From assembly GCA_039189765.1 (NCBI GenBank), contig JBCCYL010000001.1, positions 32,001 to 96,000 on the forward strand: a stretch of DNA of 64,000 nucleotides. The letters run 5' to 3'. Made by a program: the position numbers and the translations under genes. A model generated the notes under the pieces. The model had not been told where the DNA came from. It saw only the letters and a program-made list of their open reading frames with translations, and made no database searches. Every line of letters starts with the position of its first letter. The stretch's first letter is position 1. This DNA comes from Cyanobacteria bacterium P01_F01_bin.150 (GTDB lineage: Bacteria; Cyanobacteriota; Cyanobacteriia; CAKZMO01). Of this stretch, positions 12,837-64,000 are shown one piece after another.

Positions 12837-15800
12837 TTAAAACTCCATTTCTTCGCGATCGTCGTCGTCCAATTCGTCGGGAAGGGCGGCTTGGAGCTGT
12901 TGGATAGTTTGATGCTGTTCGATTCGTTCGGCAAGGCCGATGACGGTGGGGGCTTCAAATAGATCGGCGACGGTCAGTTCAATGCCAAAACGATCGAGGG
13001 ATTGGGCAACCAGTTGGGTGGCTAGCAGTGAGTGACCGCCTAACTCGAAGAAGTCGTCCTGAATACCAATGGGTTCGACCTCAAGCAGGGTTGAGAAAAT
13101 TTCAGCTAAAACCTTTTCGGTATCGCTGCGGGGAGCCAGAATCGTGTCGGCAGACTGATTGCTGCTGCGATCGGGTACAGGAAGTGCCTCTGTATCCACC
13201 TTGCCGTTGGGAGTCAACGGCAGTTGATCCAGCACCACCACATCCGACGGCACCATATATTCCGGTAGCTTAGTTTTAAGCAAGCGCCGCAGATCCTTTC
13301 CATCCTGGACTTGAGCACCATCAGATTCAAGCACAACATAAGCTGCCAGCCGCTTATCGCCAGGATTATCCTCCCGCACAATCACTACGCAAGCCTGCAC
13401 CGTTTCCTGATCTGCCAGCACTGCTTCAATTTCCCCTGGCTCAATTCGGAAGCCCCGGATTTTCACCTGCTGGTCAATCCTACCCAATAGCTTAATGCGA
13501 CCATCGGGTAGGTAGGCAGCGAGATCTCCGGTTTTATATAGAGCCAGGGAATTTTGGATTTTAGATTTTGGATTTTGGACGGATCGGTCCCCCTCCTCGG
13601 AGGGACTAGGGGTGGGTTCTGCCTTCTGCCTTCTGCCTTCTGCCTTTTCAACAAACGGATTCGGCACAAAAACATCTGCGGTTTTATCCGGTCGGTTAAA
13701 GTAGCCACGGGCGAGACCGACACCGCCGATATGGAGTTCACCGAGAACGCCAATGGGGACGGGTTGGAGGCTAGCGTCCAATACGTATAGCTGTTTGTTG
13801 GCGCTGGGAGCAATGGTGGGTGAAATTGGATGGCCGTTGCCGCATTGAACCATGCTGGCATTGACAGTAACTTCGGTGGGACCGTAGGCGTTGATAAATC
13901 GACGGTTTTCGGACCACTGTTCGATTAGGTCGGGGGAAGGTGCTTCGCCGCCCACTAGCACCATTTTTAAGTCAGGTAGTTCGGTTACAGGCAGAACCGC
14001 AAGAGCGGAGGGTGTGATAGTAATGTGGGTAACCTGATGACGACGCAGCAGGGCCAATAGTTCCGGCCCGGGGATAAGAGAACCACGAGGAGCTAGGCAG
14101 AGCTTGGCCCCACAGCCCAAAGACATCACTAGCTCAGGGATAGATGCATCAAAGCTTAGGGAGAAAAATTGAAGGACGCAGCTATCAGGGTGGACGTCAC
14201 AGGCGCGGATCTTGTGTTCCGTTAGATTTACTAAGCCAGCATGGGGTACCAGGACGCCCTTTGGAGTCCCTGTAGAGCCGGAAGTGTAGATTTGATAGGC
14301 CAGATTAGCAGGGGTAACGCTGCTGGTTGGATTGGTGTCGGAGTGAGCGGCGATCGCATCCGCATCCGCAGTCAAGTTAACAATTTTGGGGAGTTGGGGA
14401 GTTGGGGAGTTGGGGAGTTGAGGAGTTGAGGAGGTTCGGTCCCCCTCTTGGGAGGGGTTAGGGGTGGGTTGGCCTTCTGCCTTCTGCCTTCTGCCTTCTG
14501 CCTTTAAATCCGGTGAATCGCTTGTAACCAGAAGAATCTCTGCTTGAGAGTCTTCCATCATAAACTCAAGTCTAGGAGCTGGGTAGGCAGGATCCAAGGG
14601 AACATAGGCCCCACCAGCCTTCAGCACCGCCATCACTGCAATCATCATCTCAAAGGAGCGATCGATACATATGGCAACCTTTACCTCTGGTCCTACACCT
14701 AGGGACTGGAGGTGGTGGGCAAGCTGATTGCTGTGGCGATTGAACTGATCGTAGGTAAGAGAGTCGTCTTGGTAGAGGAGAGCGATCGCCTCTGGTGTCT
14801 CTTTAACCCGCTCCTCAAATACCTGATGGAAGCATTGATCGGCAGCATAGCCTATTTGAGTTTGGTTCCAGTCTTCAAGCACCTGCTGGCGTTCAGTCGG
14901 AGTCAGCAAAGGCAATAGGCCGACGGGAATATCGGGCTGCTCCACAATACTTTCTAGCAAAATACAAAAATGACTGACCATTCGCTGGATGGTGTCAGGA
15001 TTGAATAGATCCTGATTGTATTCAAAACCGCCGACGATTCCATTAGGCGTATCGTAAAGGTCCACGCTTAAATCTAGCTTGGCAGTTGAGGTGGCCTGCT
15101 TCAACACTTCCAAAGTCAGGTCAGGCACCTCAAATTTTTCTGCGGGGGGCTGCTCCAGACGGAACTTGACTTGGAACAGCGGATTGTAGCTTAAATCCCG
15201 CTCTGGGTGGAGGGCTTCTACTAACTTTTCAAAAGGTAGATCTTGATGGTCGTAGGCATCCCAGGTGGTTTGCCGGACTTGAGACAGCACCTCTTTAAAA
15301 GAAGGATTGCCAGATAGGTCAGTGCGTAGCACCAGAGTATTAACGAAAAAGCCGATTAGACCCTCAAATTCCTTGCGGTTACGATTGGCGATAGGAGAGC
15401 CAACCACAATATCAGACTGCCCTGTGTAGCGATGGAGCAGAATATTAAAGGCCGCCAGCAGTGCCATAAACAGGGTTGCACCAGAGGCAGTGGCAAATGA
15501 TTTGAGGCGATCGCTTACTTCACTACCCAGCTCAAAAGTCTCCACCCCAGCTTTAAATCCTTGGATCCGCGATCGCCCCCGATCTGTCGGTAGTTGCAAT
15601 ACGGGCAGGTCGGGCTTGCCGCCGCCATCGGTACCGCCGAGCTGCTGTTTCCAATAGTCTAGCTGCTCGTCGAGGACATCACCTTGGAGCCACTGGCGCT
15701 GCCACACCGACACATCGGCATACTGCACGGGCAGGTCTGGTAAATTGGCAGGCTGGCCGGACTGATGGCCCCGGTACAGAGCCACCAGCTCTCGAATCAA

Positions 15801-16508
15801 CACTTCCATGGACCAGCCATCGGAGACCAAATGATGCATGGTAAACAGCATTACATGGTCTTGCTCATCCAGCTTTAGCAATGTGACCCGTAGTAGAGGC
15901 GCTTCGGCAATATCAAACGGTGTTTGCGCCTCGGTAACTGCTCTGTCACGAATATCTGCTTCCGTGACATCGATAACGGGAATATCAAGGGTCAAATCAG
16001 CGGGCGCGATAACCTGGCTGGGCTGACCATCCACTAACTGAACGCCAGTTCTAAGACTTTCGTGACGACGCAGCAGGTCATTAAAGCTGGCGGTTAGACT
16101 CTCCAAATCAAGAGTGCCTTTAAGCCGTACCGCTGATGGAATATTGTAGGTGGCAGTACCGGGCTGTAGCTGCTCCAGGAACCAGAGTCGCTGCTGAGCA
16201 AAGGAGAGGGGAATAGGCTGACTTCGATCCACTGGCACAATATTAGGTGCCGCCGTAGCAGATGCTGCCTTGGCCGCGCGATGAAGGAAGGCGATAATTT
16301 CCGCTTTGCGATCGCGTAGCGTAACCGTTAGCTCATCAGTTAATACCTCTTCCGGAGCATTACACCGCAGCTTAGCCAAAGATATGGCATCTCCATTACT
16401 GCCGCCATTACTACCGCCATTATCGGCAGAGTCGCCATCACCATACTCTAACCAGAGCTGCACATCTTGCTGGTACAGGTCTGAAAGTAATGCTTCAACC
16501 GTCTTCAT
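12837..16508 (-). CDS. NRPS: TubC-N docking - C - A (aromatic, Tyr-like) - PCP; last module
   Basis: 1223 aa. HHLVSDGWS, YTSGSTG, GGHSLL. Manual code DAPTLGAVNK, nearest to Tyr/beta-OH-Tyr codes but atypical. Acidic C-terminal SLiM DDDDREEMEF. No TE domain. Confidence 0.93.
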   Translation of the reverse strand: MKTVEALLSDLYQQDVQLWLEYGDGDSADNGGSNGGSNGDAISLAKLRCNAPEEVLTDELTVTLRDRKAEIIAFLHRAAKAASATAAPNIVPVDRSQPIPLSFAQQRLWFLEQLQPGTATYNIPSAVRLKGTLDLESLTASFNDLLRRHESLRTGVQLVDGQPSQVIAPADLTLDIPVIDVTEADIRDRAVTEAQTPFDIAEAPLLRVTLLKLDEQDHVMLFTMHHLVSDGWSMEVLIRELVALYRGHQSGQPANLPDLPVQYADVSVWQRQWLQGDVLDEQLDYWKQQLGGTDGGGKPDLPVLQLPTDRGRSRIQGFKAGVETFELGSEVSDRLKSFATASGATLFMALLAAFNILLHRYTGQSDIVVGSPIANRNRKEFEGLIGFFVNTLVLRTDLSGNPSFKEVLSQVRQTTWDAYDHQDLPFEKLVEALHPERDLSYNPLFQVKFRLEQPPAEKFEVPDLTLEVLKQATSTAKLDLSVDLYDTPNGIVGGFEYNQDLFNPDTIQRMVSHFCILLESIVEQPDIPVGLLPLLTPTERQQVLEDWNQTQIGYAADQCFHQVFEERVKETPEAIALLYQDDSLTYDQFNRHSNQLAHHLQSLGVGPEVKVAICIDRSFEMMIAVMAVLKAGGAYVPLDPAYPAPRLEFMMEDSQAEILLVTSDSPDLKAEGRRQKAEGQPTPNPSQEGDRTSSTPQLPNSPTPQLPKIVNLTADADAIAAHSDTNPTSSVTPANLAYQIYTSGSTGTPKGVLVPHAGLVNLTEHKIRACDVHPDSCVLQFFSLSFDASIPELVMSLGCGAKLCLAPRGSLIPGPELLALLRRHQVTHITITPSALAVLPVTELPDLKMVLVGGEAPSPDLIEQWSENRRFINAYGPTEVTVNASMVQCGNGHPISPTIAPSANKQLYVLDASLQPVPIGVLGELHIGGVGLARGYFNRPDKTADVFVPNPFVEKAEGRRQKAEPTPSPSEEGDRSVQNPKSKIQNSLALYKTGDLAAYLPDGRIKLLGRIDQQVKIRGFRIEPGEIEAVLADQETVQACVVIVREDNPGDKRLAAYVVLESDGAQVQDGKDLRRLLKTKLPEYMVPSDVVVLDQLPLTPNGKVDTEALPVPDRSSNQSADTILAPRSDTEKVLAEIFSTLLEVEPIGIQDDFFELGGHSLLATQLVAQSLDRFGIELTVADLFEAPTVIGLAERIEQHQTIQQLQAALPDELDDDDREEMEF

Positions 16509-19500
16509 AGTTCAATCTCCTTCCGACCTTTGGATGTTGCTAATGGTTTACCTGTTGGAGAATTGCCGTTCTCCACTGAATCCGATGCCAAGGGCTTGCC
16601 CACTGGCCGCTTTAATGCCATTTGAGTCGCGTCCACATATTGCGAGAGGGCGGCGACCGTTTGCTTTTCAAACAGACTCCGCAGGGGCACCTCCAGATCA
16701 AAAACTTCTCGCAATCGGGAATTAATCCGCGTTGCTAGTAGGGAATTACCGCCCAAGTCAAAAAAATTATCCTCAACGCTAAATCGATCCACCTTTAGCA
16801 CCGAACTCCAAATTTCCTTAATCACCTGTTCGGTTGCCGTACGGGGAGCCACCATCTCCGCCGATCCCTTGGGCTGCCATTGAGGAAGCGATCGCCGATC
16901 CAGCTTGCCATTAACCGTCAATGGAATCTTTTTAATCGGAATAAACGCAGTTGGAATCATATATGGAGGTAAGCGATCGCCCAAAAACTCTTTCAGTGCT
17001 GATGAATCATCAAGAGTCGAAGCTGGAGACACCAGGTAGGCAATCAAATACTGCTGATCATTGCGCTTGGTCACCGTAACAATTGCCTGATGCACCGTTG
17101 GATAATCCGCCAGCGCCGCCTCAATTTCCCCTAGCTCTATTCGTAGCCCCCGCAGCTTGACCTGAGTATCAATTCGCTCAAGGAATTCAATTGTGCCATC
17201 GGGGAGGTAGCGGACGCGATCGCCAGTTTTATACAGAGTTAGGGAGTTGAGGAGTTTGGGAGTTTGGGAGGTTCGGTTCCCCGCCTGGGAGGGGCTAGGG
17301 GTGGGTCTGCCTTCTGCCTTCTGCCTTCTGCCTTCTGCCTTTTCTCCATCTTCTGCCTTTTCTCTGCCTTCTGCCTTTAGAAACGGATTGGGAATAAACC
17401 GCTCGGCAGTCAGCGCAGGGTTGTTGAGGTAGCCTCGTGCTAGGCCGTCTCCCGCAATATAAAGTTCTCCTGAAACCCCAGTGGGAGTGGGGTGGAGATT
17501 GGAATCCAGAATATAAAGTTGGGTATTGTGGATGGGTTTACCAATGGGAATAGAGGATGTGGAGTAGCGGGAGTTGTAGTGGGTGTGGGCAGTAACGTCA
17601 ATGGCGGCTTCGGTGGGTCCGTAGAGGTTGTGGAGGTCGGCGTTAAAGTGGATATGAATGCGATCGCCCAATATACAGGGCAATGCTTCACCGCTACAGA
17701 TAATACATTTAATCGAGTAAAGGTCTCTATCTTCCACTTCATCCAAAAATATTTGAAGCATGGAGGGCACAAAGTGCAGGGTAGTAATTTGCTCCTCATG
17801 GATAATTTGGCGCAGGTAGGCGCTGTCTCGATGACCTCCTGGCCTGGCGATTACCAGCCTAGCTCCTGTGATTAAGGGCCAGAAAAATTCCCATACCGAT
17901 ACGTCAAAACTAAAGGGAGTCTTTTGGAGAACGCGATCGCTACTATCCAGGCCATATTCTGACTGCATCCAATGCAGCCGATTCACCAGCGCTCGATGGA
18001 TATTAACAACGCCTTTAGGTTCTCCAGTAGAGCCAGAAGTATAGAGAACGTAGATGGCATTATCAGGCGTAACTGTTGTGCTGGGGTTTGTCGTCGGGAA
18101 AGACGCAATTTTTTCATCCCGAACATCCTCAGCCGTTAGCACAACAGAAACATTAGCGTGAGCTTGAATATAGTCCAAACGGTTCTGAGGATAGTCTGGG
18201 TCAAGAGGGACGTAAGCTGCACCAGCCTTCAAACTTCCAAGAATAGCTACTACCATTTCTACACAACGTTCCATATGGATGCCCACACGATGTTCGGGTA
18301 GAACTCCGATGGATTGTAGATGGTGCGCTAGCTGATTAGCCTGATGATTGAGGTCAGCGTAGGTGAGGTGCTGGTCTTGAAAGGTAACCGCTACCGCATC
18401 AGGAGTTCGATCAACCTGCTGCTCTACCCACTGATGCAAGCAGAGAGTCTGGGGATAGTCTTGATGAGTATGATTCCAATCCGTTAGAAGCGTTTGTTTC
18501 TCCGCCTTAGTGAGTATGGATAGATCCCCGACAAGACACTCTGAATTGGCCAGCATATTGTCCAGTATCGTTTGCCAATGGGAAATAAACTGGTTAACCG
18601 CCTTGGCGGTGATGCGATCGCCATCGTATTTCACGGTAATGTTTAGCGTGGTACCGGGAGCCACCAAAATTGTCAGAGGGAAGTGAGTCCATTCCAGCGA
18701 TCGCACCTCTTTAAGCTGTAAGTCCTGATCGCCAGACCCTGAAGATGGCTCAATGGGATAGTTTTCAACAACCAAAATGGTGTCAAACAGCGCCGTATTT
18801 TGGGGCAGTTCACTCCAGCCCTGGATATCCATCAGCGAGGCATATTCATAAGGTAGCGCCTCCGCTTGATTTTGCTGGAGCTGCTGAAGCCAGGATATTA
18901 ACGACTGTTCCTCCGCAACCTGAACTCGCACGGGTAGGGTATTGATAAATAATCCTACCATTGCCGCCGAGCCAGGCAAATCCACAGGCCGCCCTGAGCG
19001 GGTGGAGCCAAACACCACGTCATCCGCGTCACAGTAGCGACTGAGGACGATCGCCAGCGATCCCTGAAGCAGCGTATTGAGGGTTAGCTGATGCTGTTGG
19101 GCCAGGGTCTTGAGGGATTTTGTTATTGTCTCCTCGATTTCATACTCCCGTTCCTGCCAATGCTGAGCCGAATATGCCTGAAGGGAGTTTGATGGGGAAT
19201 TTGGGGCTAAACCAGATTGAGAAGAGTCAGATGGGAAAAAGATAGATCCAGAAGAATTAACTTGAGAAGACTTGGTCTTAAGAGCCACATTGCCCAGCGT
19301 TTCCAACACATCAGACAACCGTGAGGGGCTTTTAAATCCCTTGAGTTGTTGTTGCCAAAAGTGCTGGGCCTCTTGTTGATCCTGCTGGCGTAGCCAAGAG
19401 ATATAGTCACGATATGGCTGACGAGTAAGCGTTGCTATTGCCTTGTCGGTCTCACAAAGTTGGGCATAAACATCAAAGACATCTTTAACCACAATGGCCG

Positions 19501-19966
19501 CAGACCAGCCATCTATAATCAGATGGTGCTGAGTCCATATCATCTGATATTGGGTATCAGCTAGCTGAACTAGAGTAATTCTCATTAAAGGCGGAGACTT
19601 GAGATTAAATCCCTGCTGGCGATCGCCCTCCAGAAATGCCTCTAATTTCGCCTGCTGGTCTTCAGATGGCACGGACCGCCAGTCTTCAAACTGCCATGGC
19701 AACAACAGGCGATGATACACCACCTGAAACGGATCGTCTCGCTTTTCCCAATGAAAGCTGCTGCGGAGAGCGGGATGTTGGAGCAGCACCTGTTGCCATG
19801 ATTGCTGGAGGCGATCGCTATCTAGCGCTCCCTCAAACGTTAGGCATACCTGGGGTACATATACTCCTGTTTCAGGCGTTAGTAACTCATGAAACAACAT
19901 TCCCTTCTGCATCGGGGACAGGGGATAAATATCAGCAATGTTTTTCTTATCCATTGTTTGGCTCAT
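16505..19966 (-). CDS. NRPS: C (DCL-type) - A (Ser) - PCP
   Basis: 1153 aa. IADIYPLSPMQ, HHLIIDGWS, code DVWHISLIDK (Ser), GGNSLL. C-terminal RKEIEL. ATGA overlap with the next gene. Confidence 0.95.
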   Translation of the reverse strand: MSQTMDKKNIADIYPLSPMQKGMLFHELLTPETGVYVPQVCLTFEGALDSDRLQQSWQQVLLQHPALRSSFHWEKRDDPFQVVYHRLLLPWQFEDWRSVPSEDQQAKLEAFLEGDRQQGFNLKSPPLMRITLVQLADTQYQMIWTQHHLIIDGWSAAIVVKDVFDVYAQLCETDKAIATLTRQPYRDYISWLRQQDQQEAQHFWQQQLKGFKSPSRLSDVLETLGNVALKTKSSQVNSSGSIFFPSDSSQSGLAPNSPSNSLQAYSAQHWQEREYEIEETITKSLKTLAQQHQLTLNTLLQGSLAIVLSRYCDADDVVFGSTRSGRPVDLPGSAAMVGLFINTLPVRVQVAEEQSLISWLQQLQQNQAEALPYEYASLMDIQGWSELPQNTALFDTILVVENYPIEPSSGSGDQDLQLKEVRSLEWTHFPLTILVAPGTTLNITVKYDGDRITAKAVNQFISHWQTILDNMLANSECLVGDLSILTKAEKQTLLTDWNHTHQDYPQTLCLHQWVEQQVDRTPDAVAVTFQDQHLTYADLNHQANQLAHHLQSIGVLPEHRVGIHMERCVEMVVAILGSLKAGAAYVPLDPDYPQNRLDYIQAHANVSVVLTAEDVRDEKIASFPTTNPSTTVTPDNAIYVLYTSGSTGEPKGVVNIHRALVNRLHWMQSEYGLDSSDRVLQKTPFSFDVSVWEFFWPLITGARLVIARPGGHRDSAYLRQIIHEEQITTLHFVPSMLQIFLDEVEDRDLYSIKCIICSGEALPCILGDRIHIHFNADLHNLYGPTEAAIDVTAHTHYNSRYSTSSIPIGKPIHNTQLYILDSNLHPTPTGVSGELYIAGDGLARGYLNNPALTAERFIPNPFLKAEGREKAEDGEKAEGRRQKAEGRPTPSPSQAGNRTSQTPKLLNSLTLYKTGDRVRYLPDGTIEFLERIDTQVKLRGLRIELGEIEAALADYPTVHQAIVTVTKRNDQQYLIAYLVSPASTLDDSSALKEFLGDRLPPYMIPTAFIPIKKIPLTVNGKLDRRSLPQWQPKGSAEMVAPRTATEQVIKEIWSSVLKVDRFSVEDNFFDLGGNSLLATRINSRLREVFDLEVPLRSLFEKQTVAALSQYVDATQMALKRPVGKPLASDSVENGNSPTGKPLATSKGRKEIEL

Positions 19967-19981
19967 CCACTTAACATCCCC

Positions 19982-37365: not shown

Positions 37366-37368
37366 GGT

Positions 37369-54977: not shown

Positions 54978-57900
54978 TTATCGTCGCCTCCTTCTCTGTC
55001 GTCCTGAAGTCTGGTTAGAACTCTGGGGAACAGAAGAGCGAGACGGTAAGCTTTGATTTGTCCCTTGGTTTGCCCCTGAGTTTGCCCCTTGGTTTGCCCC
55101 TTGGGCACTACTTTTCTGCTGATTTACTCGATTTAACACCTGGTCTAACTGCTGCTGATTTAACCGAGCAGCTTCAAAATCAGAAGGCGTGTACTCTTTT
55201 GCAGTTGCGCTATCGTTCTGCTCTAGTCGAGTCTGGCCATATCGCAGCAGCGATCGCAGCACAGACATATACCGCTGCACAAGCGGCTCAATATCCTGTT
55301 GGGCATACTGTTCTCTGCTGTAATTCCATTGTGTTTGCAATTGACCGTCCCGCACAAAGCTGTTGATTTCCAGCGCATATAGGCGGGGCATATTCGGGTC
55401 CACGGTAGTCCCTGGCGAGATATTTGAAATCCCCTTCACCATAGAGTCCGCCGCAGAACGCAAATCTAACTGGCCCAAATAATTGAACTTAATCTTGGGA
55501 GGTCGAGGCAACGTCACCGACTGACGCACATTAGTGTCAGGATGAAGATAGCGAAGCAACCCGTACCCTGTACCATTTTTAGGAATCTGACGGAGCTGTT
55601 CCTTAACTGACTTTAAAGCGTCTCCGGGTTGTCCTCCTCGATTTAGCGTCAGCATCACTGGAAATATGGACGTAAACCATCCCACCGTCCGCGATACATC
55701 CAGCCCTAAATTATGACTGTCATTGATGTGATCGAAAACATCACGTCCGTATCCTTCCAAATCAATAACTAAAGAATCCGATTGCCCTAGGCCTATCGTC
55801 TGACTCCATTCCATCGAACGTCCTAACGTCTGTACTAAAGCTGTCAGCATCACCTCGTCCACACGGGTATTAAATACAGACGGCATTTGGGTCAAAAGAT
55901 TCTGAGTCTCGACGTTATCCAATGTGGCGGTTACTTGCTCCGCTGTGGATTGTAGAGGCTGCACCATTGGACTTTGAAGACTTGCATTCTGATAGGTTTG
56001 AGAAATTTCCTCCGCTAATTGCTGCCAATAGCTTCTTTGCTCAAGGATTTGTGATGATTGAGCGTGATGAACTAGCGCCTCTCCCCATGCTTGGAACGAT
56101 GTGGTTTTAGGAGGGAGAGCAATAGTCTCTGCCCCGTCTTTGCCTATCTCACTTTGATCTTTGCGATTATCCTGCTGCTGCCGATAAGCCAACTCCAAAT
56201 CCGCCAGCAATACTCGCCACGACAGTCCATCTACAACTAAATGATGAACAATAATCAATAAACAAGGCTTCTGATTTGCTCCCCTCTGGAACAATACACA
56301 GCGACACAGGCAAGCAGATAAATCGAGGCTAGCTTGGAGATCGTTAGAGAGGGCGGCGATCGCTTCCTCCTGCCCCGCCAATGGAAGCCCCGTCAAATCC
56401 TCTACCAAGAACGTATCTTCACCAGACCCAACCGTTCCGTAGGTTGGATTAGCGACAGCGTAACCCAACAGAGTGTCTTGCGCTGTAGATAGCTTTGTTG
56501 GGTTTCCTTCGTCAACCCAACCTACGTGGCTGAATCGTAATCGCAATGCATCATGGTGCTCAACCATTTCAGTCCATGCCTTAGCAAGATACTCTGTCTC
56601 AATTTCAGACTGTAGTTCCAGTAATAATGATTGGTTGTAATGATGGGGATTAGGTAGATTTTGCTCAAAGAACCAGTGATAGATCGGTAGCCACTCTTGA
56701 ACCCCTGCGATCGCCCCCTGCTCCGGCATAGCCATTTGAGACGGACCCGATTCTGCTGCCACTGCCGCCAATTCTGCCACCGTTTGATGCTGGAATAGCT
56801 GGCGCGGCGTAATCGTCAAACCCGCTTGCTTTGCTCTAGCAATAATTTGAATACTCAGGATGGAGTCTCCACCAAGTTCAAAGAAATTATCGCAAGTGCC
56901 AACTTTAACCCCTAATACCTCTGACCAGATATCAACCAATACCTTTTCAGTATCGGTCTGAGCTTCTTGTCTACTCTGGCCTGAATTGCGACTTTGAGCC
57001 TCCCAATCAGGCGTTGGTAGAGCCGTACGATCGATCTTGCCATTTGCCGTCAGTGGAAATGACTCAACAGGAACGATCGCCGCAGGAATCATGTAGGAAG
57101 GAAGACAATCCTTAAGGAAGGATTTTAGATTTTGGATTTTGGTGGAGGAGTTGGGGAGTTGGGGAGTTGGGGAGTTGGGGAGTTGGGCGTTGAGCGGTGG
57201 GACATGCCGGTCCCTCTCTTGGGATGGGTTAGGGGTGGATGGATTTTGGATGGTCTTTTGCTGAGACGCAAACGTAATGTGGGCGACCAGATGGGAACCA
57301 CGTTGATCATCGTGCTGAAGTGTGGCGATCGCCCCCTCCACCTCAGGATGACGCACCAGCGTTGCTTCAATCTCACCCAGCTCAATCCGGAAACCGCGCA
57401 GCTTAACCTGATTGTCGATTCGTCCCAGGTACTCAATCGTGCCATCTGGACGGTAAAAAGCGCGATCGCCTGTCCTGTATAAAGTTAAGGAGTTGGAGGG
57501 TTGGGGAGTTGGAGAGTTTAAATTTTGGATTTTAGATTTTGGATTCTGGACATTTTGTCCCTCTGCTCCCTTGCTCCCTTGCTCCCTTGCTCCCCTGCTC
57601 CCTTGCTCCCTTGCTCCTTCTGCCTTCTGCCTTCTGCCTTCTGCCTTTAAAAACGGATTCGGAATAAAGCGATCGCCCGTTAAATCAGGTCGATTATGAT
57701 ACCCTCGCGCCACCCCCGCGCCACCGATATAGAGTTCGCCTGGAATACCAACCGGAACTGGATTAAGGTAGCGATCAAGAATATAAAGCTGAGCATTCGC
57801 TATCGGGCGACCAATCGGTACATTGCCTGACGAACTGCTCGCTGATGAAGCCGCAGACGCATCATATACGCAGCATCCCACCACCGTTTCCGTCGGCCCA

Positions 57901-60761
57901 TACTCATTTATCAACCGAGTGTTGGGGGCATGCGATCGCCAATAGGCCAAATGCGCCTCAGTTAATGCTTCTCCACCCAAAACAAACGCATTTGCTCCGA
58001 CGTAGGATGTGTTAGGCGACAGCCGTAACGCATCATCAGATTTAGTGCTGCCCAATAACTCCAGAACCTTCAAATGAGCCGGAGTCAATTTTGCCAAACT
58101 AAACGATTGCCCAGTAGGCTGGGCGATGCCTACCATTTGTCCAATTTTTGAAGTTTCAGAAATTCCGACCAAGAGAGCTTCGGATAAGGCTTCAATTTCA
58201 TCTTCTTCCGGCAACATCGTTACCGTCTGACCCGAGACCAATGGCAACAGCAAACTTGTAATCGTTGCATCAAAGCCAATGGAAGACTGCACTGGAGCAC
58301 CCGTTCCCTCTGTTACTCGATATTCCTCTCGACTCCATCTCAGATAATTCACCAACCCGCGATGGGTAATCATCGTCCCCTTAGGCGTCCCGGTAGAACC
58401 AGATGTGTACATCACATACGCTAAATGCTGACTTATAAGATGACAGCCTAAATTTGTAGATGGAAATTTACGAATAACATCTTGTTCAACATCCAATCGC
58501 GTCTGAGAAATGTCGCCCCACACTTTAGAAGGACTGGCGGAATCCACAATCACGCGGCAACACTCCGCATCCGTCACCATAAACCGGAGGCGATCGTCCG
58601 GCAATGTTGGGTCCAACGGCAAATAGGCCGCTCCAGTTTTCAGTACAGCTAAGATCGCAACTAACAGATTAGGAGTACGTCCCAGACAAATCCCCACAAT
58701 ATCTCCAGAACCAATCTTGTGATAACGGAGATAATGAGAAAGCTGATTAGCTTTGATGTTCAGCTCTTGGTAAGTCATCCCCTCTAACCCCTCTTTAACA
58801 AGAGGGAGAACCGGACTTCCACTTCTCTCCTTGGTAAGGGGGGAGGGAGGGAGGGGAGACGAGGCGATCACATCCACTTGCATCATCCTTACCGCCATAG
58901 CCCCAGGATTTTGTTCAACCTGTTCCTCAAATAACGAACAAATGGAATGGGGTAAATACTCAGGCACCGACGTTTGATTCCACTCCACCACAAGGTGATG
59001 CTGTTCATCTGCGGTTAAAATATCAACTTCAGATAATCGCTGGTCTGGATTGGTAACAATGGATTCCAGCAAGACTTTAAAGTGGCCCAACATGCGCTGG
59101 ATGCGATCGCCATCAAACAGCTCAGTGCAATATTCCACCACTGCCAGCAGACCATCATCCCGCTCAATCGTATGCCAGGTGAGGTCAAACTTTGTTACCT
59201 TGGGCGCTAACCACTGCTGCTCTAGCGTCAATCCTGGTAGCTGTAGTTCCGGTCGAGCCGCATTTTGCATCTGATAGGCAGCGTTCTGGAACTGGAACAT
59301 CACCTGAAATAGAGGATTATGGCTTAAACTGCGCTCAGGCTGAAGCTCCTCTACCAGTTGAGCAAAGGGTAAATCTTGATGCTGAAAGGCCGATGACGCA
59401 GCCGATCGCACCAGCCGCACTACCTCGCGAATAGTCGGAGGTGCGCTTTTGGATAGGTCTTGAAGCCGTGAACGGACCACTACGGAATTTACGAAAAAGC
59501 CGATTAAGCCCTCTAGTTCAGTCCAGTTGCGATTGGCTGTGGGCACTCCAACCACAATGTCATCTTGATCGGTGTAGCGATGCAGCAAAATTTTGAACGC
59601 CGCCAGCAGCGTTATAAAGACCGTAGTCCCTTCCTGCTGACTTAGTTCTTTGATTTGATTGAGCAAATCCAGGGGCAACATTAGTGATGCAGTAGCGCTG
59701 TCAAAGGTTTGAGCCGGAGGCCGGGGGTGATCGGTGGGCAACTCCAGCATGGGGATATCGTGGAGTTGCGATCGCCAGTATTCCAACTGCTGCTCTCGCT
59801 CATGCCCCTGCAACCACTGCCGCTGCCATGCCGCAAAGTCAGCATACTGGATAGGCAATAGACCTAACGGAGATGGTTGTTCTTGACTGAAGGTACGATA
59901 CAAGGCTGACAATTCTTTTAGCAAGATGCCACGGGACCAGCCATCGCCGACGATGTGGTGGAGAGTGAGAAGGATAGTGTGTTGGGGAGTTGGGGAGTTG
60001 GGGAGTTGGGGAGTTGGGGAGTTGGAGAGTCGGGGAGTTAGAGAGGTTCGGTCCCCCTCTTGGGAGGGGTTAGGGGTGGGTTCCTCCGATTTTAGATTTT
60101 GGATGTTGGATTTTGGAGAGGTGGCCTGGCTACCTTCTGCTCCTTCTGCTCCCTCTGCCTTCTGCCTTCTGCCTTCTGCCTTTTGGACGGATCGAATAAC
60201 GCTAACTCGTAAAAGAGGCGGTTGGGTGAGGTCGAAGGGTCGGTTGATTTCCGCTTGGGTGAGGCGATCGATTTCTTGAGCTTGAGCTTCAAGGGAGAGC
60301 GGTCGGATATCCACCACGGGCATAGAAAAAGCTGTGGGTTGAACCGTGAGTTTGGGCTGACCCTTTTCTTCTCCAAATGAGGTCCGCAATACTTCATGAC
60401 GCTGGACAATTTCAGTAAAACTTTTTTGCAGAATCGTAAGATCTAAATCCCCAAAAAGATGCCACTGCATGCCAATGTTGTAGGCAGGATTGTTGGGGTC
60501 AAGCTGATAAAGAAACCATAGGCGCTCTTGGGCGTAAGATAGGGGATAATCGTCTAAATTCTGCCGTTTTTGAATAAAATTCTTACGAGCTTGAGGATGC
60601 TCATCAGTATCAGGCTTATCAGCATCAGACAGGTTAGATATCAAACCAGAAACAGACAGCCCCTTTTGCTTGAGCTGCTGGATAAAAAAGGTCCGCTTTT
60701 CCGGTGGCAACGAATTGATTCGCCGCCGTAGCATCTCTAATTGTTGCCCCTGATCACTCAT
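54978..60761 (-). CDS. NRPS: C - A (Asn) - PCP - E
   Basis: 1927 aa. HHIVGDGWS, code DATKVGEVGK (Asn-type), GGDSIL, E domain HHLVVDGLSW and EGYGRD, COM tail YTPSDF. Stop abuts the next ATG (TAAATG). Confidence 0.95.
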   Translation of the reverse strand: MSDQGQQLEMLRRRINSLPPEKRTFFIQQLKQKGLSVSGLISNLSDADKPDTDEHPQARKNFIQKRQNLDDYPLSYAQERLWFLYQLDPNNPAYNIGMQWHLFGDLDLTILQKSFTEIVQRHEVLRTSFGEEKGQPKLTVQPTAFSMPVVDIRPLSLEAQAQEIDRLTQAEINRPFDLTQPPLLRVSVIRSVQKAEGRRQKAEGAEGAEGSQATSPKSNIQNLKSEEPTPNPSQEGDRTSLTPRLSNSPTPQLPNSPTPQHTILLTLHHIVGDGWSRGILLKELSALYRTFSQEQPSPLGLLPIQYADFAAWQRQWLQGHEREQQLEYWRSQLHDIPMLELPTDHPRPPAQTFDSATASLMLPLDLLNQIKELSQQEGTTVFITLLAAFKILLHRYTDQDDIVVGVPTANRNWTELEGLIGFFVNSVVVRSRLQDLSKSAPPTIREVVRLVRSAASSAFQHQDLPFAQLVEELQPERSLSHNPLFQVMFQFQNAAYQMQNAARPELQLPGLTLEQQWLAPKVTKFDLTWHTIERDDGLLAVVEYCTELFDGDRIQRMLGHFKVLLESIVTNPDQRLSEVDILTADEQHHLVVEWNQTSVPEYLPHSICSLFEEQVEQNPGAMAVRMMQVDVIASSPLPPSPLTKERSGSPVLPLVKEGLEGMTYQELNIKANQLSHYLRYHKIGSGDIVGICLGRTPNLLVAILAVLKTGAAYLPLDPTLPDDRLRFMVTDAECCRVIVDSASPSKVWGDISQTRLDVEQDVIRKFPSTNLGCHLISQHLAYVMYTSGSTGTPKGTMITHRGLVNYLRWSREEYRVTEGTGAPVQSSIGFDATITSLLLPLVSGQTVTMLPEEDEIEALSEALLVGISETSKIGQMVGIAQPTGQSFSLAKLTPAHLKVLELLGSTKSDDALRLSPNTSYVGANAFVLGGEALTEAHLAYWRSHAPNTRLINEYGPTETVVGCCVYDASAASSASSSSGNVPIGRPIANAQLYILDRYLNPVPVGIPGELYIGGAGVARGYHNRPDLTGDRFIPNPFLKAEGRRQKAEGAREQGSRGAREQGSKGAEGQNVQNPKSKIQNLNSPTPQPSNSLTLYRTGDRAFYRPDGTIEYLGRIDNQVKLRGFRIELGEIEATLVRHPEVEGAIATLQHDDQRGSHLVAHITFASQQKTIQNPSTPNPSQERDRHVPPLNAQLPNSPTPQLPNSSTKIQNLKSFLKDCLPSYMIPAAIVPVESFPLTANGKIDRTALPTPDWEAQSRNSGQSRQEAQTDTEKVLVDIWSEVLGVKVGTCDNFFELGGDSILSIQIIARAKQAGLTITPRQLFQHQTVAELAAVAAESGPSQMAMPEQGAIAGVQEWLPIYHWFFEQNLPNPHHYNQSLLLELQSEIETEYLAKAWTEMVEHHDALRLRFSHVGWVDEGNPTKLSTAQDTLLGYAVANPTYGTVGSGEDTFLVEDLTGLPLAGQEEAIAALSNDLQASLDLSACLCRCVLFQRGANQKPCLLIIVHHLVVDGLSWRVLLADLELAYRQQQDNRKDQSEIGKDGAETIALPPKTTSFQAWGEALVHHAQSSQILEQRSYWQQLAEEISQTYQNASLQSPMVQPLQSTAEQVTATLDNVETQNLLTQMPSVFNTRVDEVMLTALVQTLGRSMEWSQTIGLGQSDSLVIDLEGYGRDVFDHINDSHNLGLDVSRTVGWFTSIFPVMLTLNRGGQPGDALKSVKEQLRQIPKNGTGYGLLRYLHPDTNVRQSVTLPRPPKIKFNYLGQLDLRSAADSMVKGISNISPGTTVDPNMPRLYALEINSFVRDGQLQTQWNYSREQYAQQDIEPLVQRYMSVLRSLLRYGQTRLEQNDSATAKEYTPSDFEAARLNQQQLDQVLNRVNQQKSSAQGANQGANSGANQGTNQSLPSRSSVPQSSNQTSGRQRRRRR
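56439..56525. repeat. 87-bp inverted doublet of GTAG-footed REP-like elements, in frame inside the E domain
   Basis: GTAGGTTGGATTAGCGACAGCGTAACCCAAC ... GTTGGGTTTCCTTCGTCAACCCAACCTAC. 87 nt = 29 codons. Confidence 0.8.
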
Positions 60762-60887
60762 TTCCTACCCTGTAATTCCACAACGTATTATGCGATCGCG
60801 CCATGTCCCCTTCCTAATTCTTGGTAACGGATTACACTATCTTTAATCCGCTCTGCAAGATGCTTACAAAAATCTCATTAAATTTAC

Positions 60888-61949
60888 TTAAGCGACTACC
60901 ACCGGCTTTTGGGCACAGTTGTCCTGTAGCTGCTTCAGATAGGGCAAACTCTCCATCACGTAGTCAAAATCCTGAACAAAATCGATAAGACAGGCAACTT
61001 CCGTAATCCCAGTCTGACTCAATTCATCCACAAAAGGTAGACAGCTTTCGGGAGTCCCGATGAGCGATCGCCCCTGCATAAATCCTTCCACCCCGAACAA
61101 TAATAAACTATCAATATCATCCTCAGAAAAATCTTTCAAGCTAATAGTCATTCCCATGCCCTTAGCTAGATTTTCTAACAAATCATAGTGAGTTTTTAAG
61201 TAATCACAAAAGGGTCTTCTCACTTTTTCCTTAACAGTTTCAATGTCTGCTCCCAAAAAAGTATGGAGCATTAGTGAAACCGTCTTTGTTTTTGGATCAT
61301 GCCCATATTTTTCCAAACACTTATGATAGAGCTTTATCTTTGGTTTAATGCTGTCCAAATCTCCGGTTAAAAGTGAGGTCAAAACATTGGCTCCCATCTT
61401 CCCTGCTTCCATAAAGGTTTCATTGGATTGGCAGGTAATCCATAGCGGCAGCGTTGACTGAATGGGATTGGGCAAGGTTTTGACAGTAAAGGACTTACCC
61501 GTAGCGTCCTGCTGACTAATCGCTTCGCCAGACCAAAGTCGCTGGAGCGTATCAATCCCTCTCCACATGGTGGCTTTACGGCTAGCGTGGGGCGCACGGG
61601 ACAGAATAAAGTCATCAACGGTCCACCCTGAAGCAACCGCAACTGCCGCCCGTCCATTGGACAGATTATCGACGACTGCCCATTCCTCCGCAATCCGCAC
61701 CACATCATGCAGCGGAATCACTAAACTACCAGCCCGCAATTGAATATTTTCAGTAATCATTGCCAATGCCGTACTCGTCAATGCGGGGTTGGGGTAAAGC
61801 CCCCCAAATGCGTGAAAATGGCGCTCCGGGGTCCACACTGCAGTAAAACCATTCTGATCCGCAAACTTAGCGGTTTCCAACAGCATTTTATATTTATTAG
61901 AATCGGCAACCGACCCATCACCATCAAAATAAAATAAGCTAAATTTCAT
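60888..61949 (-). CDS. Luciferase-like (LLM) flavin-dependent monooxygenase of the natural-product biosynthesis (MupA-like) type
   Basis: MKFSLFYF..AKFADQNGFTAVWTPERHFHAFGGLYPNP..RIAEEWAVVDNLSNGR..EVACLIDF. Start moved from 62009 to the ATG at 61949, which matches the family N-terminus and has purine-rich GAAAGGG upstream. Confidence 0.92.
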   Translation of the reverse strand: MKFSLFYFDGDGSVADSNKYKMLLETAKFADQNGFTAVWTPERHFHAFGGLYPNPALTSTALAMITENIQLRAGSLVIPLHDVVRIAEEWAVVDNLSNGRAAVAVASGWTVDDFILSRAPHASRKATMWRGIDTLQRLWSGEAISQQDATGKSFTVKTLPNPIQSTLPLWITCQSNETFMEAGKMGANVLTSLLTGDLDSIKPKIKLYHKCLEKYGHDPKTKTVSLMLHTFLGADIETVKEKVRRPFCDYLKTHYDLLENLAKGMGMTISLKDFSEDDIDSLLLFGVEGFMQGRSLIGTPESCLPFVDELSQTGITEVACLIDFVQDFDYVMESLPYLKQLQDNCAQKPVVVA

Positions 61950-62117
61950 TATTTTTTCCCTTTCAATATCACTAATCTTAATTAGGTACAAACTCAACCT
62001 ATAAAACAATTTATTTAACTAATCACTCATATTCCAAAATCCAAAATTGACCCTCTCCTAGCCCCTACCAGGAGGGGAACCGAACCATCCAAAATCCAAA
62101 ATCTAAAATCCAAAATT

Positions 62118-64000
62118 CTAAGTCTGCCCTCCTTGTTCCTGAAGCTGGGCTGTGACATCATCCAAATCCATATTTTCGACTTGTGATAGAAGGTCAGCAA
62201 TTTCATTCTGTTCCTGCTCGGTTGTTAATTGTGGGGGAGGGCTGTTGGGTTTCCTATCGTCAACCCAACCTACGGAGTCGGGGTCTTCGTCAGTGCCACC
62301 TTCTACCTTCTGCCTTCTGCCTTCTGCCTTTTGAAAGTCGTCGCTGAGGTTCTCCTCAATAATCTTGGCAATCCCTGCCACTGTGGGCGACTCAAACAAA
62401 AATTCTCGCATCGGTAAGTCTACATTGAATTCGTTGCGGAGGCGAGATACCGCTTGAATCGCCAAAAGTGAATGACCGCCCAGCTCAAAGAAATTATCGT
62501 GAATTCCCACCTGCCCTATTCCCAGGAGTTCTTGCATAGCCTCGGACACCGCCGTTTCAATGGAATTGCGAGGGGCAACATAGGTGGTGGAAAGCTGAGG
62601 TCGCTGGTGAGCATTGGCCGTGCCGTTATTGTTAAAACCATCTGGATCCAAATCCTTGGTAACGGCTAGCTTGCGAGCATCAATAATCCGCTGAGGTAAG
62701 TCAGTGGGAGATGTGGCAATCTGCATTGGTCCAGGCAGGCCAGACGATTGAATAATCTGGGAAAAGAGGCGATCGCATACGTCATCAACTTCACTCGGCG
62801 TCATCGCCAAATCCACTAATGCCGATCCGGTTATGGCACTCTCTGAATCCACTTCATCATCCCGGCAGGCATCCCAATTAACGCTTAGCCACTGGGGACC
62901 TGTATCTAGCATTGCTGAACGATTTCGCTCTGCTGCCAACGCATCCATAAAATAGTTGGCTCCGCTATAGGCCGAGAATCCCACACCACCCACAACCGAT
63001 GATAAGGATGATTGCAGCCAAAAGAACTCTATGGCCCGATTGCCCAAAGCCTGTTCCAGACTCAACAATCCCTGCATTTTAGATTTAAACTGTTTAGCGA
63101 TCGCCTCAGGCGTTAAATCAGCAATCAGACAGCTCGACTGCCCTCCCATCACTCCAGCATGGACGACGCCCTGAATCGGGCCAAGGATCTCTTCTGCTTG
63201 GGTCAGGAGCGATCGCACCCTATCCGTATCGGTCAAATCCGCACTAAAAAACTCGTATTCTACCTCCTGAGCCGCCAACCCCTGAAGCCGACGAATACAA
63301 TTACTCACCGGATCGCGCTGCCCATGTACCCCCAACCACGGCTCCCACTGGTCCGGCATAGGCATCCCTTCGCGACCAAGCAAAATCAATTTAGCCTGGT
63401 GGGTCTGGGCAAAGTACTGGGCAAAGTACAAACCAAGACCGTCAACTAGATCGCCAGCAATCAGAAGAGTTGGGGAGTTGGGGAGTTGGGGAGTTAGGGA
63501 GTTGGAGGCGTAGGGATTTTGGATTTTAGATTTTGGATTTTGGATAGAGAGTTGGGACGTAAGATCCCAGGGTTCTTGGGAATGCTTTGGCTGCTTTAAC
63601 GAGGTTTGGGCAAAACCCTGGGATCTGGACGCGCTTTCATCTATCTTTAGTAGAAGCGGCGTGTAGCTCTGAACCCACCGACAAAACCCTCGATAGGCAA
63701 CCACGCACGTTCTATCTGCCGTATTGGAGGGTAAAGTGATGTCGGTGAGAATCGAAGCGATCAGGGCTTTTGGAATAGAGCCATTGCCCGATGGACTATT
63801 AATGTCAATCACTTGGCAGCGGATGTGGGGATATTCCTGGGGAATCACCTGGCAGGCTCCTAGAAGAGGAGCGTTGTGAGGGTTTAAGTCTTCTGTTCCT
63901 GTAACATCGTGGATTGGAGGTGTTAGAACCGTGATAGTAACTTCAGAGGGTGTGGATAAAGCTTTTTCAGCCGTTGCACCGTTGCCATTGCCGTTGGAGA
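62118..64000 (-). CDS. 3' part of a type I PKS module (KR - ACP), truncated by the right edge
   Basis: I checked that the frame stays open from 63848 to the edge (..IHDVTGTEDLNPHNAPLLGACQVIPQEYP..). KR: AGDLVDGLG, GVVHAG, SSLSSVVGG..AYSGAN. ACP GGHSLL. Paralogous to the 37369-42426 PKS. Confidence 0.93.
   Translation of the reverse strand, partial: SNGNGNGATAEKALSTPSEVTITVLTPPIHDVTGTEDLNPHNAPLLGACQVIPQEYPHIRCQVIDINSPSGNGSIPKALIASILTDITLPSNTADRTCVVAYRGFCRWVQSYTPLLLKIDESASRSQGFAQTSLKQPKHSQEPWDLTSQLSIQNPKSKIQNPYASNSLTPQLPNSPTLLIAGDLVDGLGLYFAQYFAQTHQAKLILLGREGMPMPDQWEPWLGVHGQRDPVSNCIRRLQGLAAQEVEYEFFSADLTDTDRVRSLLTQAEEILGPIQGVVHAGVMGGQSSCLIADLTPEAIAKQFKSKMQGLLSLEQALGNRAIEFFWLQSSLSSVVGGVGFSAYSGANYFMDALAAERNRSAMLDTGPQWLSVNWDACRDDEVDSESAITGSALVDLAMTPSEVDDVCDRLFSQIIQSSGLPGPMQIATSPTDLPQRIIDARKLAVTKDLDPDGFNNNGTANAHQRPQLSTTYVAPRNSIETAVSEAMQELLGIGQVGIHDNFFELGGHSLLAIQAVSRLRNEFNVDLPMREFLFESPTVAGIAKIIEENLSDDFQKAEGRRQKVEGGTDEDPDSVGWVDDRKPNSPPPQLTTEQEQNEIADLLSQVENMDLDDVTAQLQEQGGQT
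63562..63626. mobile_element. 65-bp inverted-repeat element inside the PKS KR region
   Basis: AGATCCCAGGGTTCT-N35-AAAACCCTGGGATCT (one arm mismatch). Confidence 0.7.

What the first reader, a model, noticed from the sequence alone, without database searches (positions are those of the whole stretch)
12837..63626. Megasynthases heavily colonised by in-frame micro-repeat cassettes with a fixed internal order
Seen: at least 20 low-complexity inserts in intact ORFs of up to 12 kb, with no frameshift or stop. In the coding direction they usually run (AAGGCAG)n = KAEGRRQ, then hairpin core CCCACCCCTAGCCCCTCCCAAGAGGGGGACCG = PTPSPSQEGDR, then (CTCCCCAA)n = TPQLPNSP and/or (TCCAAAA)n = SKIQNPK. The same parts fill the intergenic gaps. 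The units are 7- and 8-mers, so frame survival implies filtering by selection on a functional protein. Known: short tandem heptamer repeats (STRR) and small dispersed repeats (SDR) occur in filamentous cyanobacteria, sometimes within genes. Inference: this density and ordering suggest an actively spreading composite element whose core is linked to tandem-repeat growth at both ends. The CIS genes are almost free of these inserts.
Basis: partly seen in the sequence, partly recalled or inferred. Interest (0 to 1): 0.8.

Follow-up and report, generated by a model that had tools for sequence, protein, structure and literature searches.

The report
Triplex repeats lodged in megasynthase loops
Short repeat cassettes sit in frame in the flexible loops of a conserved cyanobacterial peptide-synthetase gene cluster and of many housekeeping genes, and their core is a predicted DNA-triplex repeat that also flanks a small DUF559 nuclease gene, which likely helps it spread.

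Summary
In detail: 29 repeat clusters lie in frame in the intact NRPS/PKS genes, 27 in coding orientation. The cassettes are genome-wide: 110 of 177 in-gene clusters are in ordinary genes such as carB, topA, mutS and mfd. This cluster is the densest sink (505/Mb against 15/Mb). Other HIP1-rich, probably long-resident megasynthases come close (298/Mb), and HIP1-poor ones are mostly empty. Orthologues fill the same loops with other repeats, and a congener has the heptamer arrays without the core, so the core does not drive array growth. The core fits the class II intrastrand-triplex pattern (151 of 200 copies). It flanks the genome's stand-alone DUF559 nuclease gene and lies beside 44 of 80 relatives of that gene, against 4 of 79 distal controls. 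The heptamer-core fusion occurs in 1 of 251 genomes. dN/dS of 0.04-0.09, orientation bias and frame bias point to selection on protein. Mobilisation by DUF559 is inferred, not shown. This scan noted the DUF559-repeat pairing and repeat-filled NRPS loops before, on other DNA. Verdict: new variant of a known kind.

The parts
12837..16508 (-). NRPS (TubC_N-C-A-T), 1223 aa, host of two cassettes
   Evidence: orthologues in G001, G011, G016
13559..13646 (-). K-core-S cassette in the A6-A7 loop (between PNPF and YKTGD); predicted disordered
   Evidence: pLDDT<50 at model residues 418-446
14390..14504 (-). K-core-P cassette in the A2-A3 loop; predicted disordered
   Evidence: pLDDT<50 at model residues 140-155
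16505..19966 (-). NRPS C-A-T, 1153 aa; K-core-P cassette at 17251-17341
   Evidence: G001 has K and S without core at the same loop
19982..29071 (-). NRPS, 3029 aa; clusters at 22425-22582, 23070-23212, 24734-24754, 25786-25873, 26110-26197, 26886-27042 and one antisense P array at 27486-27529
29068..37365 (-). NRPS with nitroreductase-type oxidase domain, 2765 aa; clusters at 31084-31185, 34544-34614, 36735-36755 and one antisense P array at 36947-36966
   Evidence: contigs of run X1 match the flanks and run into the inserts
37369..42426 (-). PKS KS-AT-KR-T, 1685 aa; cassettes at 39613-39732 and 40433-40509
42699..54977 (-). NRPS, 4092 aa; clusters at 43199-43301, 44323-44343, 45683-45779, 46486-46537, 48579-48599, 51685-51869, 52908-52927
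54978..60761 (-). NRPS, 1927 aa; clusters at 57123-57239, 57489-57550, 57627-57647, 59994-60182
62118..63998 (-). 3' part of a PKS that begins beyond the window; clusters at 62310-62330 and 63482-63544
25814..25843 (-). Typical core (30 nt; element about 35 nt with its tail). The G-rich + strand fits a class II purine-motif intrastrand triplex: pyrimidine stem, loop, purine stem, loop, mirror third strand. The same repeat flanks the DUF559 gene at G000:C206:7365-7760, outside the window
12585..12835 (-). Intergenic gap filled by the same parts (core, S, P, S, then K)
5045..5202 (-).
62051..62108 (+). Intergenic core-S in antisense orientation

Best explanation
The inserts are in-frame repeat passengers in predicted disordered loops of NRPS/PKS enzymes that are under purifying selection; their core is a predicted intrastrand-triplex repeat that also flanks the genome's DUF559 nuclease gene and is likely mobilised by it, and in this lineage it fused with older 7- and 8-base arrays into a composite that was likely copied from site to site. 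Step 1 (shown): short K, P and S arrays occur across the genus and family without the core. Step 2 (shown as a pattern; folding inferred): the core is a member of a triplex-type repeat family that sits beside one clade of DUF559 genes in several phyla. Step 3 (inferred): a founder K-core(-P/S) fusion arose in this lineage and was copied as whole or partial tracts, probably by repair of nicks or breaks that uses the short arrays as homology. This would replace native loop sequence without a target duplication. Step 4 (supported by orientation, frame and dN/dS data): selection removes copies that are antisense (hydrophobic peptides), out of frame, or outside loops. Step 5 (inferred): this cluster is the densest sink because it has been inherited in the family for a long time and offers several tolerant loops per module, so every repeat family in the genome accumulates there.
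For: Loops: the two inserts are the only segments of 3 or more residues with pLDDT<50 in an otherwise confident A-domain model (mean 85.7). The A6-A7 loop is 52-79 aa in 9 of 9 measured cluster domains against 28-34 aa in 11 of 11 measured domains of other G000 clusters; it is also long in G001, G011 and G016 orthologues with different filler. Selection: dN/dS 0.044-0.092 in four NRPS comparisons; GRAVY of sense peptides -1.2 to -2.6 against +0.2 to +1.8 antisense; with the modal 35-nt K-core spacing only one frame is free of stops, and 19 of 21 sense copies use that offset; of 87 cores in ORFs, 81 are sense and none is in the stop frame. General sink: unrelated repeat peptides are also concentrated in the cluster, 13 of 27 EP[WR]DL hits, 5 of 12 and 3 of 5 for two other motifs. 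Residence: density rises with HIP1 content; three nearly insert-free clusters have no orthologue above 51% in the relatives searched, while insert-bearing C21 has orthologues at 64-73%. Triplex: 151 of 200 cores pass stem/loop criteria like those of PMC4666352, with three-strand compensatory changes in other genomes (L176, L215). DUF559: cores lie 111 nt before and 512 and 709 nt after the start of the only stand-alone DUF559 match in G000 and flank the G002 gene. Of 80 relatives, 44 have the core within 300 bp against 4 of 79 distal controls, and 59 of 80 against 3 of 79 by the triplex test. The pattern is present in 7 of 16 genomes with this clade against 9 of 234 without (kin not independent). 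A 28-nt stretch of the DUF559 locus arm (core tail plus P seed) recurs at 9 places, 3 of them window inserts, control 0.
Against: No activity of DUF559 was shown; the only solved relative is an 'endonuclease-like protein' (3HRL). The two relatives with the most cores lack the close DUF559 clade (G082, 87 copies, 93% complete; G022, 42 copies, 99% complete), and G077 (complete) has 9 cores and no DUF559 match. 9 of the 16 clade-bearing genomes have no match to my pattern. C104 has 7 clusters but no orthologue above 53%, against the residence idea. Intergenic arrays also lean sense (102 of 148), so part of the bias is not protein-level. Seven-base stems can arise by chance, and stable folding of the E. 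coli motif in vivo was not supported (PMC4666352). No empty-site allele from a close strain was available, so the insertion step was not seen. Translation of the inserts is inferred.
Confidence: 0.6

Rival explanations
1. No dedicated mobiliser. Repeats spread by host processes alone (polymerase stalling at the triplex, template switching, ectopic gene conversion between short arrays), and the DUF559 gene is only a passenger that once arrived between two copies. Selection and residence act as in the best explanation.
For: High core counts in genomes without the close DUF559 clade. Native loops are replaced by varied mixtures of parts with no target duplication at carB, mutS and mfd. K, P, S and the 33-nt palindrome spread with no known enzyme. 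PMC4666352 reports polymerase blocking in vitro and higher variability around such motifs.
Against: The tight pairing with DUF559 across cyanobacteria, Bacteroidota and others, different repeat variants beside different DUF559 clades, and clustering of repeat subtype on the nuclease tree (15 changes against a shuffled mean of 26; kin share labels) are hard to explain for a mere passenger.
Confidence: 0.22
2. One reading: one actively spreading composite element, aimed at this cluster, whose core makes tandem arrays grow at both ends.
For: Order K<core<P<S in 103 of 129 multi-part clusters. One dominant K-core junction, 36 copies. Fusion unique to this genome among 251. Cluster density 9 times that of long HIP1-rich ordinary genes (p=2.5e-17).
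Against: Arrays without core at the same loops in G001 and G011. Cores without arrays in about 70 of 200 cases. K length mode of 4 in and out of genes. Unrelated repeat families are enriched in the same cluster, and other HIP1-rich megasynthases are not significantly lower (p=0.08).
Confidence: 0.1
3. The inserts are adaptive: charged flexible loops tune NRPS dynamics or solubility, or the arrays act as phase-variation switches or recombination handles between modules.
For: The same loops are expanded in four genomes. Non-triplet units could switch frame by slippage.
Against: Filler sequence differs at almost every orthologous site. Flanks of modules are diverged, and the only long near-identical segment within the cluster is a cassette pair, so no sign of inter-module conversion. 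Arrays are short (mostly 3-6 units), and no length variant of a K/P/S array was listed for the stretch laid (contigs only).
Confidence: 0.06
4. Assembly artefact or silent, decaying cluster.
For: The genome is a 350-contig assembly, 4.7% contaminated, and no RNA data could be examined.
Against: Independent genomes have inserts at the same loops. Contigs of run X1 match the flanks with 0-1 differences at even depth of about 45-50 and run into the inserts (possibly the source sample, so not independent). dN/dS is below 0.1.
Confidence: 0.02

Closest known systems
Class II purine-motif intrastrand triplex repeats (BoxC / PIT / TM_ECO; Holder et al. 2015, PMC4666352, passages read)
   Same: Order pyrimidine stem, loop, purine stem, 3-nt loop, mirror third strand with T opposite A; second-loop forms TTA and CCG seen; inverted doublets; the paper notes many G/C-rich motifs in cyanobacteria.
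   Different: Stems of 7 nt, not the 9-nt TM_ECO consensus. TM_ECO is always intergenic in E. coli K-12, whereas 87 of 200 cores here are in ORFs. The paper found no mobility gene near TM_ECO; here a DUF559 gene is flanked.
REP/REPIN with RAYT (Bertels and Rainey 2011, PMC3116915, passages; Di Nocera et al. 2013, PMC3733652, passages)
   Same: A single-copy nuclease gene flanked by the genome's dispersed repeat; inverted doublets; some copies inside genes.
   Different: The partner is a DUF559 endonuclease-like protein, not a Y1 transposase; none of the 9 Y1_Tnp matches in G000 has a core within 600 bp.
STRR heptamer arrays and small dispersed repeats (SDR) of cyanobacteria (Elhai et al. 2008; not held; content recalled, except the SDR5-HIP1 link seen second-hand in PMC4390886 and PMC5861425)
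   Same: Small dispersed elements embedded in heptamer arrays, sometimes within genes (recalled).
   Different: The core is longer (30-35 nt against a recalled 21-27 nt), has a triplex pattern, does not target HIP1, and sits in a fixed fusion with three different arrays.
Rickettsia palindromic elements (RPE; Ogata et al. 2000, recalled, no call)
   Same: Repeats read in frame in surface regions of housekeeping proteins.
   Different: Composite, low-complexity, variable-length and predicted disordered; replaces loop sequence.

Membership tests
Class II intrastrand triplex motif (ITxF definition) | Three stems of 6-15 nt in class II order, short loops, at most one mismatch if the stem is 7 or more | tested here: met
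   151 of 200 cores pass with a stem of 7 or more and at most 1 mismatch; 149 pass perfectly at 6 or more.
Class II intrastrand triplex motif (ITxF definition) | Third strand co-varies with the duplex stem | tested here: met
   Three-strand compensatory variants beside DUF559 genes, e.g. L176, L213, L215, L217; read by eye, no statistic.
Class II intrastrand triplex motif (ITxF definition) | Oligonucleotide folds into a triplex (CD, NMR) | not testable with these tools
   Needs experiment.
TM_ECO / BoxC | 9-nt stem consensus and intergenic location | tested here: not met
   7-nt stems; 87 of 200 cores in ORFs.
REP/REPIN-RAYT system | Repeat flanks a RAYT (Y1) gene | tested here: not met
   0 of 9 Y1_Tnp matches have a core within 600 bp.
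REP/REPIN-RAYT system | Repeats organised mainly as inverted doublets | tested here: inconclusive
   11 inverted pairs at 62-nt spacing among 200 cores; most in-gene cores are single and joined to arrays.
REP/REPIN-RAYT system | GTAG or CGTC end tag | not tested
   Not scored.
DUF559-flanking repeat family (this scan's earlier notes; no paper found) | Repeat lies directly beside a DUF559 gene, more than at distal sites | tested here: met
   G000 and G002 genes flanked; 44 of 80 near against 4 of 79 distal.
DUF559-flanking repeat family (this scan's earlier notes; no paper found) | The nuclease acts on or moves the repeat | not testable with these tools
   Genome co-occurrence is positive but has clear exceptions.
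STRR / SDR of cyanobacteria | Short 7-8 nt tandem arrays dispersed in a cyanobacterial genome, in and between genes | tested here: met
STRR / SDR of cyanobacteria | Sequence identity with a named STRR or SDR family | not testable with these tools
   The defining paper is not held.
MITE / IS-type insertion | Precise insertion with target-site duplication | tested here: inconclusive
   No duplication seen at carB, mutS or mfd, where loop sequence is replaced, but the orthologues are synonymous-saturated.
RPE-like translated repeats | Insert retained in the protein | not testable with these tools
   In frame and under orientation and frame bias; no RNA or peptide data.

The most novel reading that the evidence does not exclude
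DUF559 nucleases and triplex-forming repeats form a RAYT/REPIN-like selfish system with a different enzyme. In this lineage the repeat captured three short arrays and became a composite with a single stop-free frame and hydrophilic peptides. It now rewrites tolerant loops of housekeeping and biosynthetic enzymes, and the long-resident NRPS cluster keeps a record of successive repeat waves.
Probability: 0.35. Interest if true: 0.75.

Novelty: new variant of a known kind. Interest (0 to 1): 0.45.

Why it matters
If DUF559 moves these repeats, the origin of bacterial intrastrand-triplex repeats, left open in PMC4666352, becomes testable with one small enzyme and a 35-base substrate. The cluster also gives a natural map of insertion-tolerant loops in adenylation, condensation and PKS domains (up to about 50 extra residues under purifying selection), which is useful for NRPS engineering. 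Repeat load and HIP1 content together may date how long a biosynthetic cluster has been in a cyanobacterial lineage. In practice, these arrays break assemblies inside NRPS genes (G001 contigs end in them).

Tried and rejected
Cluster-specific targeting by the element: rejected. Core-driven array growth: rejected. HIP1 as local target: inserts are no closer to HIP1 than random points of the same gene (mean percentile 0.50 in 109 and 0.52 in 67; the script stopped before its two control motifs ran). Spread by conversion between NRPS modules: no support. RAYT or IS200 as mobiliser: 0 of 9 flanked. Plain hairpin as the conserved feature: folding not better than shuffles. Frameshifted host genes: 11 clusters touch two co-directional ORFs; none looked like a split gene by eye, a weak test. 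A true insert-length-modulo-3 table could not be made because inserts replace loop sequence and no empty allele was available. Sequencing runs: no RNA holder listed, which is no evidence on expression; one DNA run holds the stretch and may be the source sample. Reads were examined on one 11.8-kb stretch only, as contigs, so copy-number heterogeneity of K arrays is untested. The HIP1 count is doubled (palindrome); the true mean is about 1.07 per kb. Orthologue search for L048 found only G011. Literature: searches gave no paper on repeat cassettes in NRPS loops; searches gave no listed paper linking DUF559 to repeats (search listings only; 20 of 5,921 listed). Elhai 2008 could not be read. One search returned nothing and was rerun in part.
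Full report
Setting. The window is G000:C1:32001-96000 of a 10.6-Mb, 350-contig genome rich in HIP1, hence a cyanobacterium (that count is doubled, true mean about 1.07 per kb). It holds contractile-injection-system genes at 289-4285 and then a minus-strand NRPS/PKS cluster that continues to about C1:119915. A TonB-dependent receptor, an MFS transporter and two ABC transporters lie next to it, so the product is probably a siderophore-like metallophore (inference; one search was a search listing only). I call the parts K (AAGGCAG units), core, P (CTCCCCAA units) and S (TCCAAAA units).

Observation. It is confirmed. A motif scan gives 34 clusters in the window, 29 in ORFs and 5 intergenic, with 20 cores, 16 in ORFs. 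27 of the 29 in-ORF clusters are in coding orientation. 14 of 19 multi-part in-ORF clusters follow K<core<P<S, as do 103 of 129 genome-wide, but partial forms are common. The CIS region has 1 cluster in about 24 kb. Contigs of one DNA run match an 11.8-kb stretch at even depth and break at the repeats; this run may be the source sample.

Not cluster-specific, but cluster-enriched. I called ORFs with a simple longest-ORF rule and mapped 454 clusters. Among 5,091 ORFs of 600 nt or more, 177 clusters are internal, 110 of them in non-megasynthase genes. Pfam on 53 host ORFs names carB, topA, mutS, mfd, priA, uvrD, a DHH nuclease, two CobN/Mg-chelatase proteins, a LeuA-type synthase, mnmE and moeA, among others. 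Densities per Mb are 505 in this cluster (37 in 73 kb), 298 in 9 other HIP1-rich megasynthase ORFs, 47 in 31 HIP1-poor ones, 55 in long HIP1-rich ordinary genes and 15 in all ordinary genes. The cluster differs from long HIP1-rich ordinary genes (p=2.5e-17) but not clearly from other HIP1-rich megasynthases (p=0.08). In ordinary genes of 1.5 kb or more, density is about 3 per Mb below 1 HIP1 per kb and 52-69 per Mb at 1.5-4 HIP1 per kb. Inserts are not closer to HIP1 sites than random points, so I read HIP1 as a marker of residence. Three nearly insert-free clusters have no orthologue above 51% in the relatives searched and insert-bearing C21 has orthologues at 64-73%. C104, with 7 clusters and a best match of 53%, is an exception.

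The loops are the constant, the filler changes. The cluster has orthologues in G001 (81-84% identity outside divergent segments), G011 and G016. The A6-A7 loop is 52-79 aa in 9 of 9 measured domains here, against 28-34 aa in 11 of 11 measured domains of other G000 clusters, and 42-95 aa in the orthologous loci (10 and 23 A3 motifs were found, and domains where my motifs failed were not measured). G001 fills these loops with K and S/P arrays and has 0 cores in three orthologous loci; G011 uses inverted S pairs; G016 has none of these arrays. At carB, mutS and mfd each congener has its own mixture in the same loop, native residues are replaced, and I saw no target duplication. Three unrelated repeat peptides are also concentrated in the cluster. 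Module flanks are diverged, so copies were not spread by conversion between modules. An AlphaFold model of the first A domain is confident (mean pLDDT 85.7) except for the two inserts.

Selection. dN/dS against G001 is 0.044-0.092 in four NRPS comparisons and 0.019-0.039 in carB, mutS and mfd (synonymous sites near saturation). K, P and S hits in genes are 260 sense to 10 antisense, against 102 to 46 between co-directional genes (parts of one cluster are not independent). Sense peptides are hydrophilic and antisense ones hydrophobic. Of 87 cores in ORFs, 67 read PTPSPSQEGDR, 14 read PPLAPPKRGT, 6 are antisense and none is in the stop frame, although that last count is partly built into the ORF definition. 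K arrays begin after TA in most cases and have 4 units in 62 of 97 genic and 27 of 59 intergenic cases, so K behaves as a defined module more than as a freely growing microsatellite. With the modal 35-nt K-core spacing only one frame avoids both stops, and 19 of 21 sense copies use that offset. An unrelated palindrome shows a similar filter: its 33-nt form outnumbers the 64-67-nt form 21 to 8 in genes but 47 to 74 between genes (p about 0.002, where the second cell was entered as 75).

What the core is. As a plain hairpin it is unremarkable. Its G-rich strand fits a class II purine-motif intrastrand triplex in 151 of 200 copies, and variants in other genomes change all three strands together. 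The lead came from earlier notes of this scan; the definition is from passages of PMC4666352. It is not TM_ECO itself: stems are 7 nt and many copies are genic. That paper warns that 7-nt stems can arise by chance and found no support for stable folding in vivo.

The DUF559 link. I found it first in G002, where cores cluster around a DUF559 ORF. G000 has one stand-alone DUF559 match (C206) and it is flanked by cores; a second, weak match lies inside a long ORF. Among 80 relatives kept from 142 found in genome contigs, 44 have the core within 300 bp against 4 of 79 distal controls, and 59 against 3 by the triplex test. They include cyanobacteria and Bacteroidota. Other DUF559 clades carry their own repeat variants, also when fused in frame inside methyltransferase-like genes. 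Across 250 other genomes the pattern occurs in 7 of 16 with this clade and 9 of 234 without (kin not independent). Against strict dependence: G082 (87 copies) and G022 (42) lack the close clade, and G077 (9) has no DUF559 match. None of 9 Y1 transposase matches is flanked. On a tree of 55 proteins (54 of the 80 relatives, chosen by me among those with a flanking motif, plus G000), repeat subtype clusters (15 changes against 26 shuffled), which kinship alone can produce. A 28-nt piece of the DUF559 locus arm, core tail plus P seed, recurs at 9 places including 3 window inserts.

The composite. K arrays occur in G001, G003 and G011 (277, 40 and 67 overlapping matches) and not in G002 or G016. 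The core is rare in congeners (1, 7 and 4 against 164). The K-core fusion is found 30 times in G000 and in none of 250 other genomes, with one junction in 36 copies by a looser count. So the ordered cassette is a lineage-specific fusion of older parts, copied whole or in part. How it is copied is not shown. Replacement of loop sequence and junctions inside array-like sequence suggest templated repair; a nick by DUF559 is my preferred trigger.

Comparison and verdict. It works like REP/REPIN with a RAYT and like in-frame RPE or SDR-in-STRR inserts, but it fails the RAYT and TM_ECO tests and meets the triplex-pattern test. For PMC3116915, PMC3733652, PMC4390886, PMC5861425 and PMC4679880 I saw passages only; Elhai 2008 and Ogata 2000 are recalled; supplements were not opened, and those of PMC4666352 may list this cyanobacterial variant. 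Searches listed no paper linking DUF559 to repeats, but this scan holds 321 findings with those words and several on repeat-filled NRPS loops. What this window adds is the fusion of the triplex-type repeat with heptamer and octamer arrays, its entry into proteins under measured selection, and the test showing that the host loops and residence, not the element, explain the hot spot. New variant of a known kind; interest 0.45.

Noticed in passing
G000:C1:115593-133075 (L002, L107), beyond the window end: The cluster starts with an AMP-ligase/acyl-CoA-dehydrogenase/ACP protein and is flanked by a TonB-dependent receptor, an MFS and two ABC transporters, suggesting a lipopeptide siderophore conserved in the family.
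   Followed up: partly
window 8919-12578: One ORF fuses a CmlA-like diiron beta-hydroxylase, two TubC_N docking domains and a terminal reductase-type NAD-binding domain; an unusual arrangement.
   Followed up: no
window 22180-63575 (10 places) and genome-wide: A second repeat family with 15-nt inverted arms, 33 nt or 64-67 nt long (348 arm matches), reads DPRVLKEPWDL or RSRGS...EPWDL in frame; 13 of 27 peptide hits are in this cluster.
   Followed up: partly
window ORFs 19982-29071, 37369-42426, 54978-60761: A third in-frame family reads PLTKGGLRG-like peptides, 5 of 12 hits in the cluster; other class II triplex-pattern variants exist in the genome and may be the same kind.
   Followed up: no
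L089, L092, L094, L095, L100, L102, L103, L104, L106: DUF559 domains bounded by inverted repeats sit in frame inside methyltransferase or restriction-modification-like proteins of other cyanobacteria.
   Followed up: partly
G000 genome: Repeat load rises steeply with HIP1 density per gene and per 10-kb window (Spearman 0.36), without local association. HIP1 sites flank the A6-A7 loop in several modules of this cluster.
   Followed up: partly
window 289-4285 and G000:C1:12050-32116 (L056): An extracellular contractile injection system (sheath, tubes, baseplate, Pvc16) adjoins the cluster; one unannotated gene just before the window carries an S-core-S cassette.
   Followed up: partly
L067, L068, L073 (G001): G001 contigs end inside long K arrays within the orthologous NRPS genes, and G001 repeats a 33-nt higher-order K unit.
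   Followed up: partly
G000:C49, C53, C110 intergenic gaps: Cassettes fill the short gaps between co-directional genes almost exactly from stop to start, and intergenic arrays lean to the sense orientation (102 of 148); unexplained.
   Followed up: no
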